A stretch of DNA of 64,000 nucleotides from a virus. Location: positions 19,335-83,334 of the IMG/VR virus record IMGVR_UViG_3300031834_001450; one strand, given 5' to 3'. The notes under the pieces are model-generated. The model was not told the origin of the DNA. It ran no database searches and saw nothing but the letters and a program-made list of their open reading frames with translations. The position numbers and the translations under genes were made by a program. Positions 51,259 through 64,000 of the stretch are shown piece by piece; positions within the stretch are counted from its first letter, which is position 1, and each line of letters begins with the position of its first letter.

Positions 51259-53092
51259 TTAATAATTTATGTAAGTCCGCTTCAGTGATTTCTTCATTCA
51301 TTCTACTATTTAAATTTATTCTATTTAAATTTTTCTTTAAACGTAATTGATCTAATGTATAAGGATAATATAATAATTCTATAATTGAATCAACTTTAGA
51401 AATTGCTCTATCAGTTCTATTTTGTGCTTGCTCCATTAATGTCGCATCCCAAGCTAAAGTATTAAATATAATATTACTTGCTCCATATTGTAAATTTATT
51501 CCTTGAGAACTTGTATACATACTTAATATCATAAGTTTATGTTTTTTATCAAAATTAAATAAATCTTCTTTTTCTTTTCTATCACTATCTCGATCTTTAA
51601 CTTTTAATCCACCATGTACGATTAATGGGTTATATTTAGAAAATTTATTTGCTAAAGAATTTATTGTATCTGGATGTGTATCATATATGATACATTTTTT
51701 ATCTTGTTCTTCTATTATTTCTTCTATTCTACTTTTTAGTATTTGAAATTTAGGATCATTTTCAATTTTCCATTTATTTAAAATATTTGTTATTTCTATA
51801 TCGTCATAGTGTCTTTTTTTAAGAAGTTCTGCATTATCAAAAACTTCAAGTAAAATATGTAATTTTGATAAAAGTAATTTCCATGTTATTTTATCATATT
51901 CTTGTTGTAAAATATATAGTTCTTTTTCAGTCACAAGTTGATATAATCTTTTTTGTTCTTTAGTAATTTCACATTCAATTTTTTTAATTATTTTTATTGT
52001 TTTTATTTCTGATAAATCTTCTTTTCTTTTTTGAATAAAAATATGTTTATATGAATCCATTAACTTTCTAACATTTGTAGTATTATAAGAATTTATAGCA
52101 TATTTATCCCATTTGTTACCAATACTCGTAGATATCCATAATTTAAATGCAGTTTCAGACATTGGTATTATACTGCGATCAATAAATGATAAGGAACTAT
52201 ATAAATCTTCTATACCATTAATTGCAGGTGTTGCAGATAATAATGCTTTATATTCAAAGTATTTTTTTATTGAAAAAAGAACTTTAGTTTTAATTGATTC
52301 TGTGTGCTTAAATCCATGATTTTCATCACTTAATAAAAAAATATTTTTTTTATTCCATATTTTTTTTATATCAACATAATCAGCTATCTTCCATTTTAAA
52401 TTTTTTAATGATTTTTTATTATCATAAGATTTATTATATGATGCAATAACATTAGCAAGTAAGTCTTGTCTTATTATTAATATTTTTTTATTTTGAAATT
52501 TTTCAAATGGTTTTATTTTTAAATCATTATCTATTATTTGTATATCATCTTCTATAAATAAATTAACAAATTCAAGTATTTGACATTTCCAATGAAACCC
52601 CATTCCAATAGGAACAATAATTAAAATACTATCTATAATTCCTAATTTATATAAGGTAGAAAACACACAAATATTTATTATTGTCTTTCCAAGTCCAGCA
52701 TCATGACAATCTAGATATACATTTCTTTGTAGCTCCCAATTAACAGATTCTAATTGATAATTTAAAAGTTTAACGCCCTCATTTAAAATACTTGAATCAA
52801 ATTTTCTATCTCTAAAAAACTTAACTTCTTTTTTATTATATTGCTGCTGTAAAATAATAAGTTGTTCTGCACATTCATCAGATATAGAGTATTCTTGATT
52901 ATCCTTTTCTAACCATAAGATAATCTCATCTATTCTATCTGTGGGTATTTTATATTTCTTACTTTTAAAATCAAAGAATAAAAAAAGTTGAGTCAAGTAT
53001 AATATTACTTGATCAAACTCTTCTTTTTCACAAAATTTATCAAAGATAGGTTCTATATGAAAATTATTATCTTTATAAGACAATAAGTACAT
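51245..53092 (-). CDS. SNF2-family helicase
   Basis: DAGLGKT, DENH, SATP, GINL and QAQNRTDR. Confidence 0.88.
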   Translation of the reverse strand: MYLLSYKDNNFHIEPIFDKFCEKEEFDQVILYLTQLFLFFDFKSKKYKIPTDRIDEIILWLEKDNQEYSISDECAEQLIILQQQYNKKEVKFFRDRKFDSSILNEGVKLLNYQLESVNWELQRNVYLDCHDAGLGKTIINICVFSTLYKLGIIDSILIIVPIGMGFHWKCQILEFVNLFIEDDIQIIDNDLKIKPFEKFQNKKILIIRQDLLANVIASYNKSYDNKKSLKNLKWKIADYVDIKKIWNKKNIFLLSDENHGFKHTESIKTKVLFSIKKYFEYKALLSATPAINGIEDLYSSLSFIDRSIIPMSETAFKLWISTSIGNKWDKYAINSYNTTNVRKLMDSYKHIFIQKRKEDLSEIKTIKIIKKIECEITKEQKRLYQLVTEKELYILQQEYDKITWKLLLSKLHILLEVFDNAELLKKRHYDDIEITNILNKWKIENDPKFQILKSRIEEIIEEQDKKCIIYDTHPDTINSLANKFSKYNPLIVHGGLKVKDRDSDRKEKEDLFNFDKKHKLMILSMYTSSQGINLQYGASNIIFNTLAWDATLMEQAQNRTDRAISKVDSIIELLYYPYTLDQLRLKKNLNRINLNSRMNEEITEADLHKLLNGEI

Positions 53093-53893
53093 TTATTTTT
53101 CCTTATTTAATTTTTTCATATAAAGTGCAATACAATCATCTCTTAAATTTTTACTTTCAAAAATAATACGAAATATTCCCCAACTATATTGAAATTCATC
53201 TATTGCTATTAAAGGATAAAATTTATTATTATCAAAATTAATTCTAATAAAATTTATCATTTGTTTTCCCGAGTAATTAATAATTATTTCTTTTTCGGCA
53301 GTTCTAAGATTCATAATAAATTTACTATTTTCTTCTATATATACCTTTTTTTCATTATTATCTGAAATTTCTCTTATTCCTTCCATAAATTTAGAAAGAG
53401 GTAATGGAGTTTGTATTCCAAGTCCTGACATTCTTAATTCTTTTATTCCATTTCTAGTAAAAATAAATTCATCTTTCTTAATAAATATTTTTTCTATTAC
53501 TCCTATTTCAATATAAGAATGAGGTTTTTTCATTAAAATCGCATCATTAAGATTTATGCCTTCTTGTACAAATTTCATAATTTCTATATCTGTACATTCT
53601 ATTTCAGTATTTATTTTTACTTCATATTGAGGATAAAACTGTCTTGTCCATTTATCGATAAGAGTTATATAATCATAATATGAAATATTAACATCAATAG
53701 GTAAAAAATGTTTATTCTCTCCAATTAAAAAATAAATAGATTTATGTGAACGATCATATGTAGAACATACTGGTACTGGAACATTTTTTAAAAAAGCTGC
53801 TATCTTAAAACATAAAGTTTCAAGATAATACTTATCATTGAACTCCATTTTAGAAATAAATTGTTCATCTTCTAACCATGTATTTATTTTCAT
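53093..53893 (-). CDS. Hypothetical protein
   Basis: ORF with GGAGG RBS. Confidence 0.65.
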   Translation of the reverse strand: MKINTWLEDEQFISKMEFNDKYYLETLCFKIAAFLKNVPVPVCSTYDRSHKSIYFLIGENKHFLPIDVNISYYDYITLIDKWTRQFYPQYEVKINTEIECTDIEIMKFVQEGINLNDAILMKKPHSYIEIGVIEKIFIKKDEFIFTRNGIKELRMSGLGIQTPLPLSKFMEGIREISDNNEKKVYIEENSKFIMNLRTAEKEIIINYSGKQMINFIRINFDNNKFYPLIAIDEFQYSWGIFRIIFESKNLRDDCIALYMKKLNKEK

Positions 53894-55029: not shown

Positions 55030-55431
55030 CTATATTATTGTATCAATATTTAACTGTTCTGATATTACTACTACTGCATGATGTCCATAATACCCATTAT
55101 GAATATTATAAGCTGTAAACTGTAAAACCCCTTTATTTGTATTAATATTAACAAACATAACACCACCTTCATAAATTCTACCAATTTCAGAAAGATATTT
55201 ATCTTGAGTTAAACAGTCATCTACTATAGTGATAGAATTTATTTCGGCATCGAGAAATTCAACAACATCATCATTTGTAATAAAATATCCCCAAGCCTCA
55301 TAACAGCCTTGACCATTACTTATTCCTAATTTAATTGATTGTTTGTTAGTTATAATAATAAATCCTTCAAAAGTACGATCATTGGTATTAAATGAATCTT
55401 CTTCTATTCTAATTATTTTTTCACCTATCAT
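55030..55431 (-). CDS. Conserved phage hypothetical protein
   Basis: Q.C.E and NGYYG motifs. Confidence 0.6.
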   Translation of the reverse strand: MIGEKIIRIEEDSFNTNDRTFEGFIIITNKQSIKLGISNGQGCYEAWGYFITNDDVVEFLDAEINSITIVDDCLTQDKYLSEIGRIYEGGVMFVNINTNKGVLQFTAYNIHNGYYGHHAVVVISEQLNIDTII

Positions 55432-57596
55432 TTTATTTCTCCTTTATCTACATAAAAACTCTTACTTCCTTTTGTATTTTTTAAAAATTCTTTTACTTCT
55501 TCACAATGAGAAATAATAAAAATTTGATAATTTGGTAAGTGTTCTAAAAGAATTTCAAACATATTTACTGCTTTTTCTTCTGAAAGTTGAGAATCTATTT
55601 CATCTAATATCATAAAATTTAATCTATCAAGAGAGGATAAAGCGACTCTAAAACTAAGAGCTAATAAATCTTTTTCACTTCCTGATGCCATACTACATGG
55701 AGTTATACAATCTTGTTCTTTATCAACATAATAAAAATCTATACTATTTTTATCTTGAGAAAAAGTAATAGAATATTTATCATATGCTGATAAAAAGAAA
55801 TAATTCATTTTTTCTTTAATATATTCAGCCCCTTGATCTATTAACCAAGCACTAAAATCTTTATCAAGTACTTGCCTAACTTCTTTTAAAATACTTACCT
55901 TATAAGATATAGAATCAATTAATGAAATTAAACTTTTTATTTTTTGATTATCTTCTTGTTTTTCCTTTTCTATATTTTCATTATAATTAGTAACTCTTTC
56001 TTTTTCTTGTAATTTTTGTTCATATATTATAATTTCTCTATTTAAAATATCATATTTTATTTTATCATAATTTATTGGTTCATCTACTTTTTGAGGTTTT
56101 TTAATATTACTATATTGCTCTTGTAATTTAATAGATGTTTCTATTTTATTTTCTAAATCTTTTATTTGTTCTTTTATATTATTATTATAAATAGTTGTTT
56201 CATTATAGTTTTTAATTCTTTGTTTAAAATTATCTATAGTTCTTCTAAAATCAAAAGTAACTTCTAATTCTTTTTCAACAAAATCAATAAGTAGTTCATC
56301 TAATTCTTTTTGATGATTATCTATATTGTCTTGAATATTTTTTCTTTGTATTTTTATAGTTTCCTGTTCATTAACTAAAGTAGTATATTCTTTTAAGTTT
56401 TCTTTTATTTCTTTAACTTTATTTTTATATTCTAATATTTCTTTTTTACATAATAACAAATCATTTCTTATTTGCTCTATATTACCTTCATAAATAGCAC
56501 CACATGTTGGACATTTTCCTTGTTCTGATAATTGAAAATCTTTTTCAAATTGAATCCTTTCAGATTCAAATCTAATCAATTGTTCTTCAGCTTTTTCTAT
56601 ATCACTATTTTTATATATATAAGGAGATATTTGTTTTAATTGATACTGAGTTAATAATTCATTATTTCTAATTATTCCATCTTTAGCTTTTTTAATTTTA
56701 TCTTTTTTATATAAATATTTTTCATTCTTAGCTAATTGGTTAACTTGTTCTTTTTCTAAATCTATAATTTGATTATTTAAATTATCTATATTAATTTCAG
56801 AATCAATAGTTTTTAATAATTTTTTTAAATTTTCTATTTGTCTTTTAAATCCTAAAATTTGTGCGTCATATATTTCTATCTCTCTATTAGCATTTACATA
56901 AGAAGATAAATCTTTTATGTAAGTATTATAAACTACTGATTGTAATTCATAATTTTTCTTTTCTAATTCTAATATTTCTAATTGTTTTTTTATATCCTCA
57001 ATATTATCAACTGTAGGAACTTCCATAAAATTATATTTTTTTTCTTCAAGTAATTTTAGTTCTCTATCAAATATTCTTATTTCTTCCTGTTGCTTATCTA
57101 TATCAATTTTTATTTCTTCACATACCTCAACAATCTTATCTATACCTAAAATTTCTTTAAGCTTTTTAAGTCTATTAGTTGGAGTATCAAATAATATTTG
57201 AGCTGTTTTACCTTGTTCACTTATAGAGGAATATCTAATAATGTTAGGATCGATTATTTCAGCTAATTTTTTTGTAGCTTCAGAATTTTTATAAATATTA
57301 AAGCTATCATTATTTATAATGAGTTCTTTTTTAGCTGATGCACTAGCAAAAACTTTAATGAGATAATTATCATTATTAATTTCAAATTCCAGTTCAAGAA
57401 AAAACTTCTCACATCCCCATCTTACATACTCAGATATTTTTTCATTAAGATTATCTGTAAGAAGATATTCTATTGCATATAATATAGAAGATTTACCCTC
57501 TCCATTATTACCTGATATAAGATTAACATATTTAGAGGGTTCAATAATTAATTCTTTGATGTTACGAAAATTTTGAATGTATAACTTTTTAATCAT
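55428..57596 (-). CDS. sbcC: SbcC/Rad50-like ATPase
   Basis: GNNGEGKS, Q-loop, coiled coil with CPTCG hook, ASGSE, ILDE and ISH. Confidence 0.92.
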   Translation of the reverse strand: MIKKLYIQNFRNIKELIIEPSKYVNLISGNNGEGKSSILYAIEYLLTDNLNEKISEYVRWGCEKFFLELEFEINNDNYLIKVFASASAKKELIINNDSFNIYKNSEATKKLAEIIDPNIIRYSSISEQGKTAQILFDTPTNRLKKLKEILGIDKIVEVCEEIKIDIDKQQEEIRIFDRELKLLEEKKYNFMEVPTVDNIEDIKKQLEILELEKKNYELQSVVYNTYIKDLSSYVNANREIEIYDAQILGFKRQIENLKKLLKTIDSEINIDNLNNQIIDLEKEQVNQLAKNEKYLYKKDKIKKAKDGIIRNNELLTQYQLKQISPYIYKNSDIEKAEEQLIRFESERIQFEKDFQLSEQGKCPTCGAIYEGNIEQIRNDLLLCKKEILEYKNKVKEIKENLKEYTTLVNEQETIKIQRKNIQDNIDNHQKELDELLIDFVEKELEVTFDFRRTIDNFKQRIKNYNETTIYNNNIKEQIKDLENKIETSIKLQEQYSNIKKPQKVDEPINYDKIKYDILNREIIIYEQKLQEKERVTNYNENIEKEKQEDNQKIKSLISLIDSISYKVSILKEVRQVLDKDFSAWLIDQGAEYIKEKMNYFFLSAYDKYSITFSQDKNSIDFYYVDKEQDCITPCSMASGSEKDLLALSFRVALSSLDRLNFMILDEIDSQLSEEKAVNMFEILLEHLPNYQIFIISHCEEVKEFLKNTKGSKSFYVDKGEIK

Positions 57597-57842
57597 TTAA
57601 TTTCCCTTCTTTAATTATTTCTACTTTATAATCATAATGATATGATTCAGAAACAAATTTAAACTCTGACCCACACTCTTCACAAATGATAATATCTTTT
57701 AAATCAATCATACCATAAATACTTGTACCTGCATATTATTATTACAAATAGGACAAATAAAATGATTGTGAATTATATCACCACACTTTGTTTAATCTCT
57801 TCATATTTCATCTTATTTTCTCCTTTTTAAATTGTTTAAACT

Positions 57843-57964
57843 TAGAAAGTAAGGGATTCGACCCTTTAAATACCAACTAGTTAGCAATTAGTTAGCAACT
57901 AGTTAGCAATTAGTTAGCAACTAGTTAGCAACTAGTTGCTTTATATCCTTTTGGTCAACTTTCT
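57843..57964 (-). tRNA. Atypical tRNA-Ser(GCU)-like gene with five tandem anticodon loops
   Basis: Acceptor AGAAAGT/ACTTTCT, D-region TGACCAAAAGGATATAAAGCA, anticodon arm ACTAG-TTGCTAA-CTAGT, T-arm AAGGG-TCGAAT-CCCTT; no encoded CCA. Confidence 0.7.
57874..57938. repeat. 11-bp tandem repeat CAAYTAGTTAG x5 plus a partial sixth
   Basis: Read directly; unit order C,T,C,T,C,(C). Confidence 0.95.
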
Positions 57965-58197
57965 AAAATATAGATAGACTATTTTTAATCTATCTATCTA
58001 TGTATATAATATATAAAAATATATAAAAAATTAAATTTTTATTTTAACCTTTTCTTAAGTACCTTAATAAGATCTATCTTAGTGACTATTTCTGATGTTC
58101 CATCAACATAATCTATCATGTAAGTATTAATTTTTCTTTTATTGTATTATTTTTTTATTTATTTTATCCGTTCCATTTTTAGTATTTTCACTGGACA

Positions 58198-59388
58198 TTA
58201 TACTTCTTCTTCATTGACTATTTCTACATCTTTTATTTCATCTATTTTTTCTTCCATTGCTTCTTCTTTTTTACTTCTTCTTTTTGGTTTATCCTCTATA
58301 GAAGATATTACACTATTAAATGAATCTGCAGTGACTCCTATGGCAATATTTCTTGCATCCTGTATTTTTTGAAGAATATCTCCCCTTACTTTTTCAAATA
58401 TTTCGGGTTTCTCATTAAAGAATTTTTTAACATTAGGCATACCTTGACCAAGTTTTTCTTCAACGCTGTCTTTGGGAGTATAAGAAAACCATGAACCTGA
58501 TTTTTTAACCATCTCATATTTAATAGCATATTCTATAAGTTCTTTCATAGTATCTATTCCATATTCACCGTCTTTTCCTGTATTAAGAGTAAAAGAGGCT
58601 TTCTTAGAAGGAATACCTACTTTATTTTTAAATATAGTCATGTTAACATCTACTTTTTCTTGTCCATCATCATCTGTCTTCTCTACTTCAGCCTTAGAAG
58701 TCATAATACGAATACTTGCATAAAATTTCATCGCGTTTCCCACGCCAACAATTCTCGGGTCTCCGTATCCTCCAATCTTACTTCTTATTTGAGATAAAAA
58801 TATTGCGGTAGTTCCAGTATTTGTACATTTAGTTCTTATTATAGGAAGTTCTTGTGAAAATATTCTGGCGGCTAATCCCATTCCTGCATCTCCAGGTTCA
58901 CCTTCAAATAATCGTTTAGGTATCATTGAATTAGTAGAATCTATAACAACCAAACTCATAACACCTGAATCCATTATCACTCTAAGCATACTAAAAGCTT
59001 CTTCACAATAATCTGGTTGTACTACCAAAAGATTTTCTACATCCACACCCATTTTATATGCCCAAGATGCGTCAAAACTTTGTTCTGCATCTACATAAGC
59101 ACATACCATTCCTTTTTTTTGACATTCTGCAATGTTAATAAGAGTAAGAGTTGATTTACCGGATGATTCTTGTCCACCTATTTCTATTATCCTACCTTTT
59201 GGCCAACCACCTATCCCTAAAGCTTCGTCTAAATTTAATGAACCAGAACTACAAATCAGAGGTACTTCTGGAATAACTTTTTTCCCTATATAATAAGAAC
59301 CTTCACCAAATTGTTTATGAAGTTCTTTTAATGCACCTCCTTCAAGTATCTTCATTTTTTCTCTTATTGTATCTTGTACTGTAGCCAT
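58198..59388 (-). CDS. recA: RecA recombinase
   Basis: ALGIGGWPKGRIIEI.GQESSGKST, YVDAE, VIDS, MKFYASIR and KSGSWFSY. Confidence 0.95.
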   Translation of the reverse strand: MATVQDTIREKMKILEGGALKELHKQFGEGSYYIGKKVIPEVPLICSSGSLNLDEALGIGGWPKGRIIEIGGQESSGKSTLTLINIAECQKKGMVCAYVDAEQSFDASWAYKMGVDVENLLVVQPDYCEEAFSMLRVIMDSGVMSLVVIDSTNSMIPKRLFEGEPGDAGMGLAARIFSQELPIIRTKCTNTGTTAIFLSQIRSKIGGYGDPRIVGVGNAMKFYASIRIMTSKAEVEKTDDDGQEKVDVNMTIFKNKVGIPSKKASFTLNTGKDGEYGIDTMKELIEYAIKYEMVKKSGSWFSYTPKDSVEEKLGQGMPNVKKFFNEKPEIFEKVRGDILQKIQDARNIAIGVTADSFNSVISSIEDKPKRRSKKEEAMEEKIDEIKDVEIVNEEEV

Positions 59389-60281: not shown

Positions 60282-61823
60282 AAAATTTTGTGCTGTGGAA
60301 AATGCAATCTCTTTAGAGTTGCATAGGAACAGCACATACCTCCATTATATAATTTTTTCTTGCACTAATTCTCTCTAAATATTTCTTTGCATTCCAACTT
60401 TTATTAAAAATATTTCCTAAAATATCCATTATAACAAATGCTCCTGAACTTCTTTTCCCCTTAATAAAACCAATACCTTCGGGGGTTTTTACTTTGTCAA
60501 ATTTCTTAAATCCAAATAATTTTCCAGTTGGTATTTTCTTTTCACTTCTAATACCCTTCGTTTGTTGATAGTCACCTTTAGCTACATTTTTCTTAATGAA
60601 ATAATAATTCAAATCTTTAATTATTTCACTATCACTACAACAAATAGCAATAGCATCATTACAATGTGATTTAGATAATTGCAATATTTGTTCTCTCTTG
60701 AATTTAGTTTCATACCCAAAAGTTTCAACAAAATCACCAAATTTCTTTTTAAGTTGTGATTTGGTAATCCCAATTTCAGTAGCATGTTTAGTTATAGATT
60801 TTTTACCTTTTATTTCAAATTCACCTTTGTGTAATTTGTCATGACAACCTTCACATAAAGTAATTAAATTTTCTGGAGAATCTGTTCCCCCATTACTTCT
60901 AAAAATAATATGATGAACATGCAGTTTACTTTTTTTAGTTTTACAATGTTGACATGTAAATCCATCTCTATCGAGAATAAACGCCTTTACATTATAAAAT
61001 CCTTTCTGTTGCCCTTTCTGATAATCTTTAACTTCAGAATTACTTATTTTATGAATATCAAAACTTGCTAATTCTAAAATCCATTTAGAGACAGGGAGTA
61101 ACTTTTCAATAAATTTCTTTTCTCTTAAATGAGAATTTAATTTGCTTAAAAGTGAAGGAGCAAGTCTATCTTTTCTAAGGGAATTTGCTCGGTTATTCCA
61201 TCTTGCTTCTCTGTATCTTGTTTTTCTTCCTCTTCTGTTTCTTCTGTACATTTTTCTTTGTTCCATCTTTTTTGAAACATCTTGACGAATAAACGTTTCT
61301 GATTTGTACAAAACTTTACCATTTGAAATACAAGCTGTTCCAATAACCTTGCTTCCTGTGTCCATTCCTGCAATCACTTCTTGTTTATAGTTTGTTGTCT
61401 CTATTAACATTTTAATAGTGAATGGCGTTTTTTTAATTGCTTTAGCTTTACCTTCTTTTAACAATATTCTTGCTATTGATGGTTTTGTGGGCATTAAAGG
61501 TTTCCCTTCTTTGTTTAAAACATAAACTAACATCTTAGTTAAATCCTCCTTTCGGGTAATGTGTATCAAAAGCATTGAGGTTACTTTTGAATCCAACGTC
61601 CTCTCGAAGAGATGATGAAGAGTTTAACGACATAAGCACTATTCCTAACACATCAGAATTGTTTAACTTATATCCTAAGAGGTCAGAACTGAGGCGACAT
61701 CCTAACGTTACTATTTTCTTCTCATCGTTTATCAAACTTTCTCCCCCATTTGATCTTCTGGTAAACAAGCATCTTTAATTTTAAATTTTAAAGATACAAC
61801 TCTTTAGAGTTGTGTTTATTTAC
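60282..61823 (+). mobile_element. Non-autonomous IS200/IS605-family IscB element
   Basis: Target TCAT (60278-60281), left-end GAAA + hairpin GCAATCTCTTTAGAGTTGC, right-end AAAG + hairpin ACAACTCTTTAGAGTTGT ending in TTAC at 61823; no tnpA inside. Confidence 0.85.
60313..61533 (-). CDS. iscB: IscB RNA-guided endonuclease (406 aa; start re-called at MLVYV)
   Basis: PLMP, RuvC-I GMDTG, Arg-rich bridge helix RRNRR, RuvC-II ELASFD, HNH HVHHI..R..GG....NLITLC..CH and RuvC-III H.ND; AGGAGG RBS. Confidence 0.95.
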   Translation of the reverse strand: MLVYVLNKEGKPLMPTKPSIARILLKEGKAKAIKKTPFTIKMLIETTNYKQEVIAGMDTGSKVIGTACISNGKVLYKSETFIRQDVSKKMEQRKMYRRNRRGRKTRYREARWNNRANSLRKDRLAPSLLSKLNSHLREKKFIEKLLPVSKWILELASFDIHKISNSEVKDYQKGQQKGFYNVKAFILDRDGFTCQHCKTKKSKLHVHHIIFRSNGGTDSPENLITLCEGCHDKLHKGEFEIKGKKSITKHATEIGITKSQLKKKFGDFVETFGYETKFKREQILQLSKSHCNDAIAICCSDSEIIKDLNYYFIKKNVAKGDYQQTKGIRSEKKIPTGKLFGFKKFDKVKTPEGIGFIKGKRSSGAFVIMDILGNIFNKSWNAKKYLERISARKNYIMEVCAVPMQL

Positions 61824-62791: not shown

Positions 62792-62915
62792 TTAAATTTT
62801 GATTTTCGATTGTGAACTTAACACAACTCTAAAGAGTTGTATCTTCCTGCTCTGAGTGTCTAATAACTTGCTCATATCTAACAGGCGTTAATTTCCTCTG
62901 TTCCGGAGGTATTTA
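62792..62915 (-). ncRNA. TnpB reRNA (3' part) with guide AATCGAAAATCAAAATTTAA
   Basis: AACGCCTGT...GCAGGAAG + hairpin + GTTCAC right end at 62812, typical of tnpB 3' ends. Confidence 0.7.
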
Positions 62916-64000
62916 ATTTTAAAAGTGGGTAATCCACTTTAGTTAAACCAAAATTCTTAATATTTATAGCAGCATTAATATCTCTATCATGAGTTTCACC
63001 ACAATCACAAGTCCATTGTCTATCTGATAATGTCAAATTATTATTTAACATTCCGCAAGAATGACATAATTTAGTTGATGGGTCAAAACGACCAATAGAG
63101 ATTATGGTTTTACCATACCAATTAGCTTTGTAATTTAATTGTCTAACAAACTCAGACCAGCTAACATCACTTATTGCTTTAGCTAATTTGTGATTTTTAA
63201 CCATATTAGATACTGCTAAATCCTCAATACAGATAGTTTGGTTTTCACTAATTATTTTTGAAGAAAGTTTGTGCAAGAAGTCCTTACGCTGATTAGTAAT
63301 TTTTTGATGAGTTCTTGCTACTTTAATTCTACTTTTATTTTTATTATTACTTCCTTTTGTTTTATGACTATATTTTCTTTGAGCTTTCTTTAACTTCTTT
63401 TCTGATTTCTTCAAGTGTTTAGGATTAGAAATCTTTTCTCCATTACTTGTTACTAAAAAATCCTTAATTCCCAAGTCAATACCAATAGTAGTTTTCTCGT
63501 TTACTGTCTTTGGTTCAATTATATTATCTGTTGTCTCAACAAGAATAATAGCAAAATATTGGCCAGAAGGATTTTTAGAAATAGTTAATGTTTTTTCTTT
63601 TCCTTCGTATAATCTGTGTTGAATTATTTTAATTCCTTCTTTTAATTTAGGAATATATAATATTCCTTCTTCTATTTTATAATGTTGAGGAATTTGAAAA
63701 CTTTTATGATTATCGTGTTTCTTTTTAAATTTAGGAAAACCCTTTTTATTACGGAAAAAATTCTTAAAAGCTATATCTAAATTTCTCATTTCCATTTGAA
63801 GAGATTGAGAATTTATTTCATTTAACCAAGGATATTCTTTTTTGAGTTCTGGTATTTTGTTGTTTAATTCAATCCATGATATACTTTTCTTGGTATTAGT
63901 ATAATGTTTAGTTTTAGCGTCAAGACCCCAATTATATAAGAAACGTGTAGAACCAAAGTGTTTAGCTAAAAACACTTTCTGTTCTTTGTTGGGTTAAATG
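62812..64000 (-). mobile_element. IS605/IS1341-type TnpB element (left end outside window)
   Basis: tnpB plus right-end hairpin and TCAC terminus. Confidence 0.85.
62878..63975 (-). CDS. tnpB: TnpB RNA-guided endonuclease; in-frame TAA just upstream at 63994-63996
   Basis: FG..RF.YN, FPKFK, GIDLG, IEDL, PSTK.C..CG, C.CG and DRDINAA.NI. Confidence 0.92.
   Translation of the reverse strand: MFLAKHFGSTRFLYNWGLDAKTKHYTNTKKSISWIELNNKIPELKKEYPWLNEINSQSLQMEMRNLDIAFKNFFRNKKGFPKFKKKHDNHKSFQIPQHYKIEEGILYIPKLKEGIKIIQHRLYEGKEKTLTISKNPSGQYFAIILVETTDNIIEPKTVNEKTTIGIDLGIKDFLVTSNGEKISNPKHLKKSEKKLKKAQRKYSHKTKGSNNKNKSRIKVARTHQKITNQRKDFLHKLSSKIISENQTICIEDLAVSNMVKNHKLAKAISDVSWSEFVRQLNYKANWYGKTIISIGRFDPSTKLCHSCGMLNNNLTLSDRQWTCDCGETHDRDINAAINIKNFGLTKVDYPLLKLNTSGTEEINAC

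What the first reader, a model, noticed from the sequence alone, without database searches (positions are those of the whole stretch)
57843..57964. tRNA-Ser(GCU)-like RNA carrying five tandem anticodon loops
Seen: on the minus strand, a tRNA frame (perfect 7-bp acceptor stem, Ser-like D region, 5-bp T-stem) encloses an 11-bp unit repeated five times, and each unit reproduces the anticodon loop TTGCTAA. An early-type promoter (58008-58035) lies about 45 nt upstream. The T-loop lacks one T, the D-stem is weak, the discriminator is A and no CCA is encoded, so it is unlikely to decode. Adjacent arms share stem sequence, so not all five hairpins can form at once. Inference: either a decaying tRNA expanded by slippage at the palindromic ACTAGT, or a repurposed RNA such as a multivalent decoy for host anticodon nucleases or tRNA-targeting defence toxins. 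The alternating C/T variants suggest stepwise 11- and 22-bp duplications rather than a simple assembly error.
Basis: partly seen in the sequence, partly recalled or inferred. Interest (0 to 1): 0.82.

Follow-up and report, generated by a model that had tools for sequence, protein, structure and literature searches.

The report
Decaying phage tRNA-Ser with repeat expansion
This is a broken serine-tRNA gene of an uncultured sediment phage whose anticodon arm has stuttered into a short tandem repeat that differs in length between near-identical strains; it is most likely a decaying relic, not a new RNA device.

Summary
The frame encloses an 11-bp repeat (5.8 copies) with five identical TTGCTAA loops.

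The element is homologous to real class-II tRNA-Ser genes of other AT-rich phage-like contigs. Compared with them it has lost D-stem pairing, one T-loop base and the G discriminator. ARAGORN calls no tRNA.

A strain 99.2% identical over 11 kb has the same defective frame but only three loops. The two 11-bp unit indels are the only differences within 2.3 kb. The closest complete relative (RecA 84%) has the same promoter and hairpin after recA but no tRNA-like element. The small zinc-ribbon gene just downstream is broken by two frameshifts. Folding predicts that at most one or two GCU triplets are exposed.

Best reading: a tRNA-Ser(GCU) pseudogene in a promoter-proximal leader, expanded by slippage at the palindrome AACTAGTT. 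The decoy idea is untested and gains no support from conservation or folding. The five-loop count could not be checked with raw reads. The scan has noted decaying tRNA-derived repeats on other DNA before.

The parts
58005..58036 (-). Conserved phage promoter-like motif (TTTAAT...TATATATTATA) after the recA stop
   Evidence: The motif occurs 5 times in the contig, all on the minus strand; the other four sit 20-30 nt upstream of an SD+ATG. The same motif follows recA in relative L007 and precedes tRNA-Arg in L009.
57970..57997 (-). 12-bp AT-rich hairpin followed by AUAUUUU: a leader hairpin and/or weak recA terminator
   Evidence: MFE -12.4 kcal/mol, z -5.2. L007 has a 14-bp hairpin of different sequence at the same place, z -5.7.
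57843..57964 (-). tRNA-Ser(GCU)-derived pseudo-tRNA, 122 nt
   Evidence: Infernal RF00005 27.6 bits, model 1-71, E 4.5e-5. ARAGORN negative. Homology to class-II tRNA-Ser genes in alignment A2.
57938..57955 (-). Degenerate D region (ACC...AGC; intact relatives have GCT...AGC or the equivalent)
   Evidence: Alignment A2. Non-canonical D-stem pairs are marked in the cmscan alignment.
57870..57939 (-). 11-bp tandem array: six copies of the 8-bp palindrome AACTAGTT/AACTAATT separated by five GCT, giving five TTGCTAA loops; variable between strains
   Evidence: TRF, unit listing, motif counts. Strain L006 lacks two units. Logan contigs show a form 22 bp shorter.
57851..57866 (-). T arm AAGGG-TCGAAT-CCCTT with a 6-nt loop (one T missing)
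   Evidence: Four real tRNA-Ser genes with the same arm have TTCGAAT.
57601..57811 (-). Small zinc-ribbon gene broken by two frameshifts. An SD+ATG at 57811 opens a 12-codon ORF. Homology to an intact 81-aa protein continues in frame -2 (57782-57738) and frame -1 (57732-57601). The last 40 codons (57589-57711) overlap the sbcC-like start.
   Evidence: Three-frame translation. phmmer hit P0132, 81 aa. tblastn of P0132 splits over two frames. The region is identical in strain L006.
58198..59388 (-). recA-like recombinase gene, upstream neighbour
   Evidence: Pfam PF00154 in homologues; 84% identical to the L007 protein.
55428..57596 (-). SbcC/Rad50-like ATPase gene, downstream neighbour
   Evidence: Pfam SMC_N and AAA_23; syntenic with L007 from 9594 onward.

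Best explanation
The element is a pseudogene of a phage-borne class-II tRNA-Ser(GCU). It sits as the first item of a transcription unit, behind a conserved phage promoter and a leader hairpin, between recA and an sbcC-like gene. That interval holds different cargo in related phages. The tRNA has lost decoding ability: its D stem is unpaired, its T loop is one base short, its discriminator is A instead of G, and no CCA is encoded. Its anticodon arm is built on the 8-bp palindrome AACTAGTT plus GCT. This arm has been multiplied in 11-bp steps by slipped-strand mispairing, so it is now a variable-number tandem repeat: 6 units with 5 loops in this contig, 4 units with 3 loops in a 99.2%-identical strain. 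Shown: the tRNA frame, the lesions, the homology to intact tRNA-Ser genes, the copy-number polymorphism, the absence from the closest complete relative, and the broken neighbouring gene. Inferred: the slippage mechanism; transcription from the motif; and that the acceptor/T-arm minihelix may still be cut by RNase P and a 3' tRNase, so the RNA would merely be excised from the leader and degraded.
For: The tRNA frame is real: Infernal 27.6 bits over model 1-71, E 4.5e-5; the strain copy scores 26.8 bits. Four metagenomic class-II tRNA-Ser(UGA) genes share the T stem and 3' acceptor strand, which was the search pattern. Beyond the pattern, they also share the 5' acceptor strand, U8-G9 and the ...TAAAGC D-arm end. 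Against them this copy shows GCT>ACC in the D stem, TTCGAAT>TCGAAT and G73>A73. ARAGORN calls nothing in the window, the contig or L006. With three units removed and one T added in silico, ARAGORN calls tRNA-Ser(gct) at default settings, with one repeat unit serving as the variable arm. Strain L006 is 99.0-99.3% identical, and between 57252 and 59529 the only differences are two 11-bp unit deletions. Relative L007 (RecA 84%, complete 155.6-kb genome) has promoter, hairpin and SD directly, no tRNA-like element, and 3.4 kb of unrelated genes before sbcC. L009 (RecA 54%) has a genuine tRNA-Arg behind a similar promoter-like motif and hairpin, 1.2 kb downstream of recA. This shows that stand-alone tRNAs are cargo at this kind of site. 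The adjacent zinc-ribbon gene is frameshifted twice. AACTAGTT occurs nowhere else in the 83 kb.
Against: All five loops are identical and keep a textbook anticodon-loop pattern (U33, purine 37). This fits recent slippage, but it would also fit selection. The element lies directly behind a conserved promoter, so it is probably made as RNA. The acceptor and T stems are still perfect, and the two strains show no substitution in the frame, although only about 0.5 would be expected. No expression data exist. The 5-loop copy number rests on a single assembly.
Confidence: 0.7

Rival explanations
1. The RNA is a still-functional, non-decoding tRNA-like RNA. One version is a processing or punctuation module: RNase P and RNase Z cut it out and so set the 5' end of the downstream sbcC message. 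The other is the reader's version: a decoy that displays several tRNA-Ser(GCU) anticodon stem-loops to soak up an anticodon nuclease or another tRNA-targeting defence.
For: It sits 35-40 nt behind a promoter motif used five times in the contig. The acceptor and T stems are perfect, and together they form the minimal RNase P substrate (established knowledge). The fold is far more stable than shuffles, -43.7 kcal/mol, z -7. The loops are identical. Phage tRNAs are proposed or shown to counter tRNA-cleaving defences (PMC10264068, PMC11555353).
Against: The element is absent from the closest complete relative at the same promoter. Copy number differs between 99%-identical strains. In the predicted ensemble only the first GCU is fully unpaired (mean unpaired probability 1.0); the others average 0.34 or less, and in the strain allele none exceeds 0.3. 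Adjacent hairpins share arms, so at most three could form at once. The gene it would serve immediately downstream is a pseudogene. No tRNA-repair or tRNA-related genes were seen within 10 kb.
Confidence: 0.18
2. The array works at the DNA level. Six 8-bp palindromes spaced one helical turn apart would bind a dimeric protein, as an operator, iteron or centromere-like site. The tRNA frame would only be the place where the array arose.
For: The 11-bp period matches one DNA turn, each unit holds a perfect palindrome, the array lies just downstream of a promoter, and a small zinc-ribbon gene follows.
Against: AACTAGTT occurs only inside the array in the 83 kb. The relative L007 has no such array. 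The candidate binding protein is frameshifted. There is no GC-skew turn or other origin-like signal. Unit number is unstable between strains.
Confidence: 0.05
3. The five-loop count is an assembly error and the true array is shorter, although the repeat itself is real.
For: Units 1-4 and 3-6 share a 36-nt stretch offset by 22 nt, which makes a cycle in short-k graphs. Logan k=31 contigs of two runs show forms 22 bp shorter. No raw reads were available.
Against: The window's sequence contains junctions, an A-type unit followed by a full G-type unit, that cannot come from either 4-unit form. The source contig was probably assembled with k above 37, which is an inference. The 4-unit allele of L006 and X5 has a different unit order, so it is a real second allele and not a collapse.
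Confidence: 0.07

Closest known systems
Phage-encoded tRNA genes and tRNA pseudogenes (for example, tRNAscan-SE 'pseudo' calls in T4-like phages, PMC1524935)
   Same: A tRNA-derived sequence carried as accessory cargo in a lytic-type phage genome, on the gene strand in an intergenic slot, scoring just under the tRNA thresholds and carrying structural lesions.
   Different: The anticodon arm is multiplied into an 11-bp tandem array. I did not find this described for a phage tRNA pseudogene in three literature searches, none of which used repeat-expansion terms.
Class-II tRNA-Ser genes of AT-rich phage-like metagenomic contigs (L002-L005)
   Same: Identical T stem and 3' acceptor strand, similar 5' acceptor strand, U8-G9, the D-arm 3' half, and class-II length once the array is collapsed to two units.
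   Different: Those genes have anticodon UGA, a 7-nt T loop, a paired D stem and G73, and ARAGORN calls them. This copy has GCU, a 6-nt T loop, an unpaired D stem and A73, and is not called.
Short tandem repeats (VNTRs) generated by slipped-strand mispairing
   Same: A short unit, near-perfect copies, and gain or loss of whole units between otherwise identical strains. The palindromic unit can form hairpins, which favours slippage (established knowledge).
   Different: The array sits inside a structured-RNA gene, not in a coding region or promoter, and no phase-variable gene is evidently controlled by it.
Phage tRNAs as counter-defence against anticodon nucleases (PMC10264068; PMC11555353)
   Same: A phage-borne tRNA-type sequence with an intact-looking anticodon loop that is probably expressed.
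   Different: Those are functional, chargeable tRNAs that replace cleaved host tRNAs or resist cleavage. This one lacks the features needed for folding and charging, and no decoy mechanism has been shown for any phage tRNA-like RNA in the papers I read.

Membership tests
tRNA (Rfam RF00005) | Covariance-model score at or above the gathering score of 29 bits | tested here: not met
   27.6 bits in the window and 26.8 bits in strain L006. Both are full-length matches and significant (E 4.5e-5 for the genome), but both fall below the cut-off.
tRNA (Rfam RF00005) | 7-bp acceptor stem, and a 5-bp anticodon stem with a 7-nt loop carrying U33 and purine 37 | tested here: met
   AGAAAGT pairs with ACTTTCT; the anticodon arm is ACTAG-TTGCTAA-CTAGT.
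tRNA (Rfam RF00005) | 7-nt T loop (T54-Psi55-C56...) and a paired D stem, both needed for the L-shape | tested here: not met
   The T loop is TCGAAT, 6 nt. The D-stem columns are marked non-canonical in the cmscan alignment. The D stem reads ACC...AGC against GCT...AGC in homologues.
tRNA (Rfam RF00005) | Detection by a tRNA gene finder (ARAGORN, default settings) | tested here: not met
   0 genes in the window, the whole contig and L006. The element is found only at the 80% threshold, or after adding a T to the T loop of a collapsed form in silico.
Bacterial-type class-II tRNA-Ser | Long variable arm | tested here: inconclusive
   The region between the anticodon arm and the T arm is 51 nt of repeat. 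In the two-unit collapsed form, one unit folds as a 6-bp variable arm.
Bacterial-type class-II tRNA-Ser | G73 discriminator (a SerRS identity element by established knowledge, and G in all four homologues found here) | tested here: not met
   A at 57843.
Variable-number tandem repeat made by slippage | Whole-unit copy-number differences between otherwise near-identical genomes | tested here: met
   L006 has two 11-bp units fewer, and there is no other difference within 2.3 kb. Logan contig X5 shows the same allele.
Counter-defence tRNA or anticodon-nuclease decoy | Expression during infection and interaction with a tRNA-targeting nuclease | not testable with these tools
   No RNA run holds the stretch. 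The host is unknown.
Counter-defence tRNA or anticodon-nuclease decoy | Conservation of the element in related phages | tested here: not met
   It is absent from L007/G001 (RecA 84%), and there is no similar element in G002.
Iteron, operator or centromere-like protein-binding array | The motif recurs elsewhere or in relatives, and a cognate binding-protein gene is intact nearby | tested here: not met
   AACTAGTT occurs only in the array. It is absent in L007. The neighbouring zinc-ribbon gene is frameshifted.
attP-type tRNA fragment of a temperate phage | An integrase in the genome, and only the 3' part of a tRNA present | tested here: not met
   No tyrosine or serine recombinase in this contig or in the complete relative. 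Both halves of the tRNA frame are present.

The most novel reading that the evidence does not exclude
The expanded arm is selected. The phage would make a tRNA-shaped RNA that host tRNA-processing enzymes trim, and whose stacked tRNA-Ser(GCU)-like anticodon stem-loops titrate a host tRNA-targeting nuclease or modification enzyme. Unit number would vary between strains as an arms-race dial.
Probability: 0.05. Interest if true: 0.75.

Novelty: new member of a known kind. Interest (0 to 1): 0.25.

Why it matters
As a decaying relic, this is a tidy snapshot of how phage tRNA cargo dies. Point lesions disable folding and charging, while a palindromic anticodon arm turns into a strain-variable repeat, next to a second gene that is also breaking up. 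It warns annotators that such loci are not working tRNAs. It also shows that the recA-sbcC interval of this phage group is a swap site for cargo. The array can serve as a strain marker in sediment metagenomes. It would matter beyond that only if the RNA proved stable and active against a tRNA-targeting defence.

Tried and rejected
- GenBank phages: no DNA match to 57300-58500. RecA identity there is at most 43%.
- IMG/VR scans: the T-arm pattern, the anticodon-arm 17-mer, RecA alone and P0132 all returned nothing useful.
- P0121 was too short to use as a query for related loci.
The contexts of the RecA relatives at 74% identity (P0003-P0008) and of the intact zinc-ribbon homologue P0132 could therefore not be fetched.
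- GTDB genomes: five hits to the anticodon-arm 17-mer, none of them a tRNA, so chance palindromes. No donor tRNA was identified.
- No RNA holder is listed among public runs.
- Logan k=31 contigs cannot count the array, and the possible source run X1 laid nothing over it.
- attP reading rejected: no integrase found.
- Replication-origin reading: no skew change.
- A wider Rfam scan (4 kb) missed the tRNA match, which a narrower scan and the genome search did find. The miRNA-precursor hits only reflect the long imperfect hairpin that the array can form.
- My sampling count of unit hairpins returned nothing because of a script fault. Only the pair probabilities from that call are used.
- Local tblastn of the zinc-ribbon pieces against the 80 recA loci found no homologue.

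Full report
**What is there**

The window is part of an 83.3-kb IMG/VR viral contig with 24% G+C. CheckV estimates it at about 54% complete. Its DNA is held by a dozen sediment-metagenome runs.

- a perfect 7-bp acceptor stem, AGAAAGT with ACTTTCT, 8 bp with the flanking T/A;
- U8-G9;
- a D region containing GG;
- an anticodon arm ACTAG-TTGCTAA-CTAGT;
- a T arm AAGGG-TCGAAT-CCCTT that abuts the 3' acceptor strand;
- discriminator A and no CCA.

Between the anticodon arm and the T arm lies an 11-bp tandem repeat. TRF gives 5.8 copies at 92% matches. The repeat is best described as the 8-bp palindrome AACTAGTT (twice AACTAATT) alternating with GCT. TTGCTAA appears five times at 11-bp spacing.

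**Is the tRNA frame more than chance?**

Yes. Infernal's tRNA model matches exactly 57843-57964(-) over model positions 1-71. The score is 27.6 bits, E 4.5e-5 for the genome and 3.9e-4 against all 4227 Rfam families. The first unit aligns as the anticodon arm and 51 nt as an insertion at the variable region. That is just under the curated cut-off of 29 bits.

ARAGORN finds no tRNA in the window or the contig. After units are removed it reports tRNA-Ser(gct) only at an 80% threshold. It calls a 92-nt class-II tRNA-Ser(gct) at default settings only when three units are removed and one T is added to the T loop in silico. In that fold, one repeat unit forms the variable arm.

**Ancestry**

I scanned metagenome contigs with the T arm plus 3' acceptor strand, allowing an optional extra base in the loop. 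Four AT-rich contigs came back with tRNA clusters. Each holds a genuine class-II tRNA-Ser(UGA) of 86-91 nt with TTCGAAT in the T loop and G73.

Alignment A2 shows similarity beyond the search pattern: the 5' acceptor strand, TG at positions 8-9, and the ...TAAAGC end of the D arm. Against these intact genes the element has four kinds of defect:
- two of three D-stem pairs are lost (GCT...AGC has become ACC...AGC);
- the T loop is one base short;
- the discriminator is A instead of G;
- the repeat has expanded.

So this is a tRNA-Ser-type gene that carries several independent lesions.

**Population and relatives**

The same scan found L006, a 20.9-kb contig that is 99.0-99.3% identical over 11.4 kb. 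Between window positions 57252 and 59529 the only differences are two 11-bp deletions inside the array. L006 therefore has four units and three TTGCTAA loops in a 100-nt element. It carries the same T-loop, D-stem and discriminator defects and scores 26.8 bits.

A Logan contig from another run (X5) shows the same allele. A third run (X9) shows a form 22 bp shorter, which a k=31 graph would also produce from the six-unit allele, so it is not independent evidence. The array is therefore a variable-number repeat, and the lesions pre-date the strain split.

The closest complete relative is L007/G001: RecA 84% identical, 155.6 kb, with terminal repeats. After recA it has the same promoter-like motif and a hairpin of different sequence, followed directly by an SD and a gene. 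No tRNA-like element is there, and 3.4 kb of unrelated genes precede sbcC. A more distant relative, L009 (RecA 54%), has a genuine tRNA-Arg(UCU) scoring 69.6 bits. It lies behind a similar promoter-like motif and hairpin, 1.2 kb downstream of recA. The recA-sbcC interval is thus a cargo slot, and stand-alone tRNAs are among the cargo.

**Surroundings**

- The motif TTTAATTTTTT-N8-TTTTATATATTATA (58005-58036) occurs five times in the contig, always on the minus strand. The other four copies sit 20-30 nt upstream of an SD+ATG.
- A 12-bp hairpin (57970-57997; -12.4 kcal/mol, z -5.2) lies between the motif and the tRNA-like 5' end.
- Downstream, a strong SD and an ATG at 57811 open only a 12-codon ORF.
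- A library-wide phmmer search found an intact 81-aa zinc-ribbon protein, P0132. Its residues 21-35 match frame -2 (57782-57738) and residues 38-81 match frame -1 (57732-57601). The ATG lies in the third frame. That gene is therefore broken by two frameshifts, identically in both strains.
- Neighbouring genes belong to a DNA-metabolism module: a DHH phosphoesterase, an ATP-grasp enzyme, an SNF2 helicase, the SbcC-like ATPase and RecA. IscB and TnpB elements lie upstream.
- No integrase is present in this contig or in the complete relative.
- There is no skew change near the element.

**RNA-level behaviour (predicted only)**

The 122-nt RNA folds at -43.7 kcal/mol (z -7). The fold keeps the acceptor stem and T arm and adds two long irregular helices. 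In the ensemble only the first GCU is fully unpaired. The others average an unpaired probability of 0.34 or less, and in the 100-nt allele none exceeds 0.3. Adjacent hairpins share the palindromic arms, so at most three could form together. A display of five anticodon loops is not expected.

**Interpretation**

The best-supported account (about 0.7) is a decaying tRNA-Ser(GCU) gene in a promoter-proximal leader. Its palindromic anticodon arm has expanded, and still changes, by slippage in 11-bp steps. It sits beside a second decaying gene. Transcription and possible excision by RNase P and a 3' tRNase are inferred, not shown.

It lacks support from conservation, copy-number stability and folding. 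A DNA-level protein-binding array is unlikely: the palindrome occurs nowhere else and relatives lack it. Whether this contig truly has five loops needs spanning reads.

**Comparison with what is known**

Phage genomes are known to hold tRNA pseudogenes (PMC1524935). Phage tRNAs have been proposed or shown to counter tRNA-cleaving defences (PMC10264068, PMC11555353), but those are working tRNAs. Earlier notes of this scan, on other DNA and unchecked here, describe decaying tRNA-derived repeats and swappable tRNA-like modules behind phage promoters.

I file this element as a new member of a known kind: a phage tRNA pseudogene, here with an internal tandem-repeat expansion. It is a curiosity and not a new system.

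Noticed in passing
window 60313-61596 (-) and 62878-63975 (-): The phage carries an IscB-type gene (RRXRR + HNH, E 4e-56) and a TnpB-type gene (OrfB_IS605 + Cas12f1-like TNB), 1-5 kb upstream of recA. Both lie in the part shared at 99% identity with strain L006, at least up to 61662.
   Followed up: partly
L007 6314-7966 (+): In the RecA-84% relative, the gene that takes the place of the tRNA-like element encodes a 550-aa protein with roughly 65 tandem NQVx tetrapeptides. These come from a 12-bp DNA repeat of about 0.8 kb.
   Followed up: no
L088 1501-1578 and 1819-1896 (G001:69302-69379 and about 240 nt downstream): The only tRNA-model hit in the complete 155.6-kb relative is a 78-nt tRNA-like gene (30.6 bits). 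ARAGORN draws it with an 8-nt anticodon loop (tRNA-???, 'taca'). ARAGORN also calls a 78-nt tRNA-Met(cat) nearby. Neither is related in sequence to the element studied here.
   Followed up: no
L002, L003, L004 (metagenome contigs, 28-30% G+C): AT-rich contigs with clusters of 4-12 tRNA genes. Each includes a 71-72-nt tRNA with anticodon UCA, which ARAGORN labels SeC but which is of ordinary tRNA size. This hints at a TGA-reading tRNA in these phage-like elements.
   Followed up: no
window 53089-53102 versus L006 2784-3037: Strain L006 has about 250 bp that the window lacks, at the junction between the SNF2-helicase gene and the gene upstream of it.
   Followed up: no
genome positions 1167 and 17434 (before the window); window 19682, 29647, 58005: Five copies of one promoter-like motif (TTTAATTTTTT-N8-TTTTATATATTATA), all on the minus strand. 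Two of the genes behind them begin with signal-peptide or lipoprotein-like sequences.
   Followed up: partly
cellular hits: The nearest cellular RecA proteins (46-47% identity) are from Campylobacterota (Helicobacter, Campylobacter, Nitrosophilus). This is a weak hint at the host group of this 24% G+C sediment phage.
   Followed up: no
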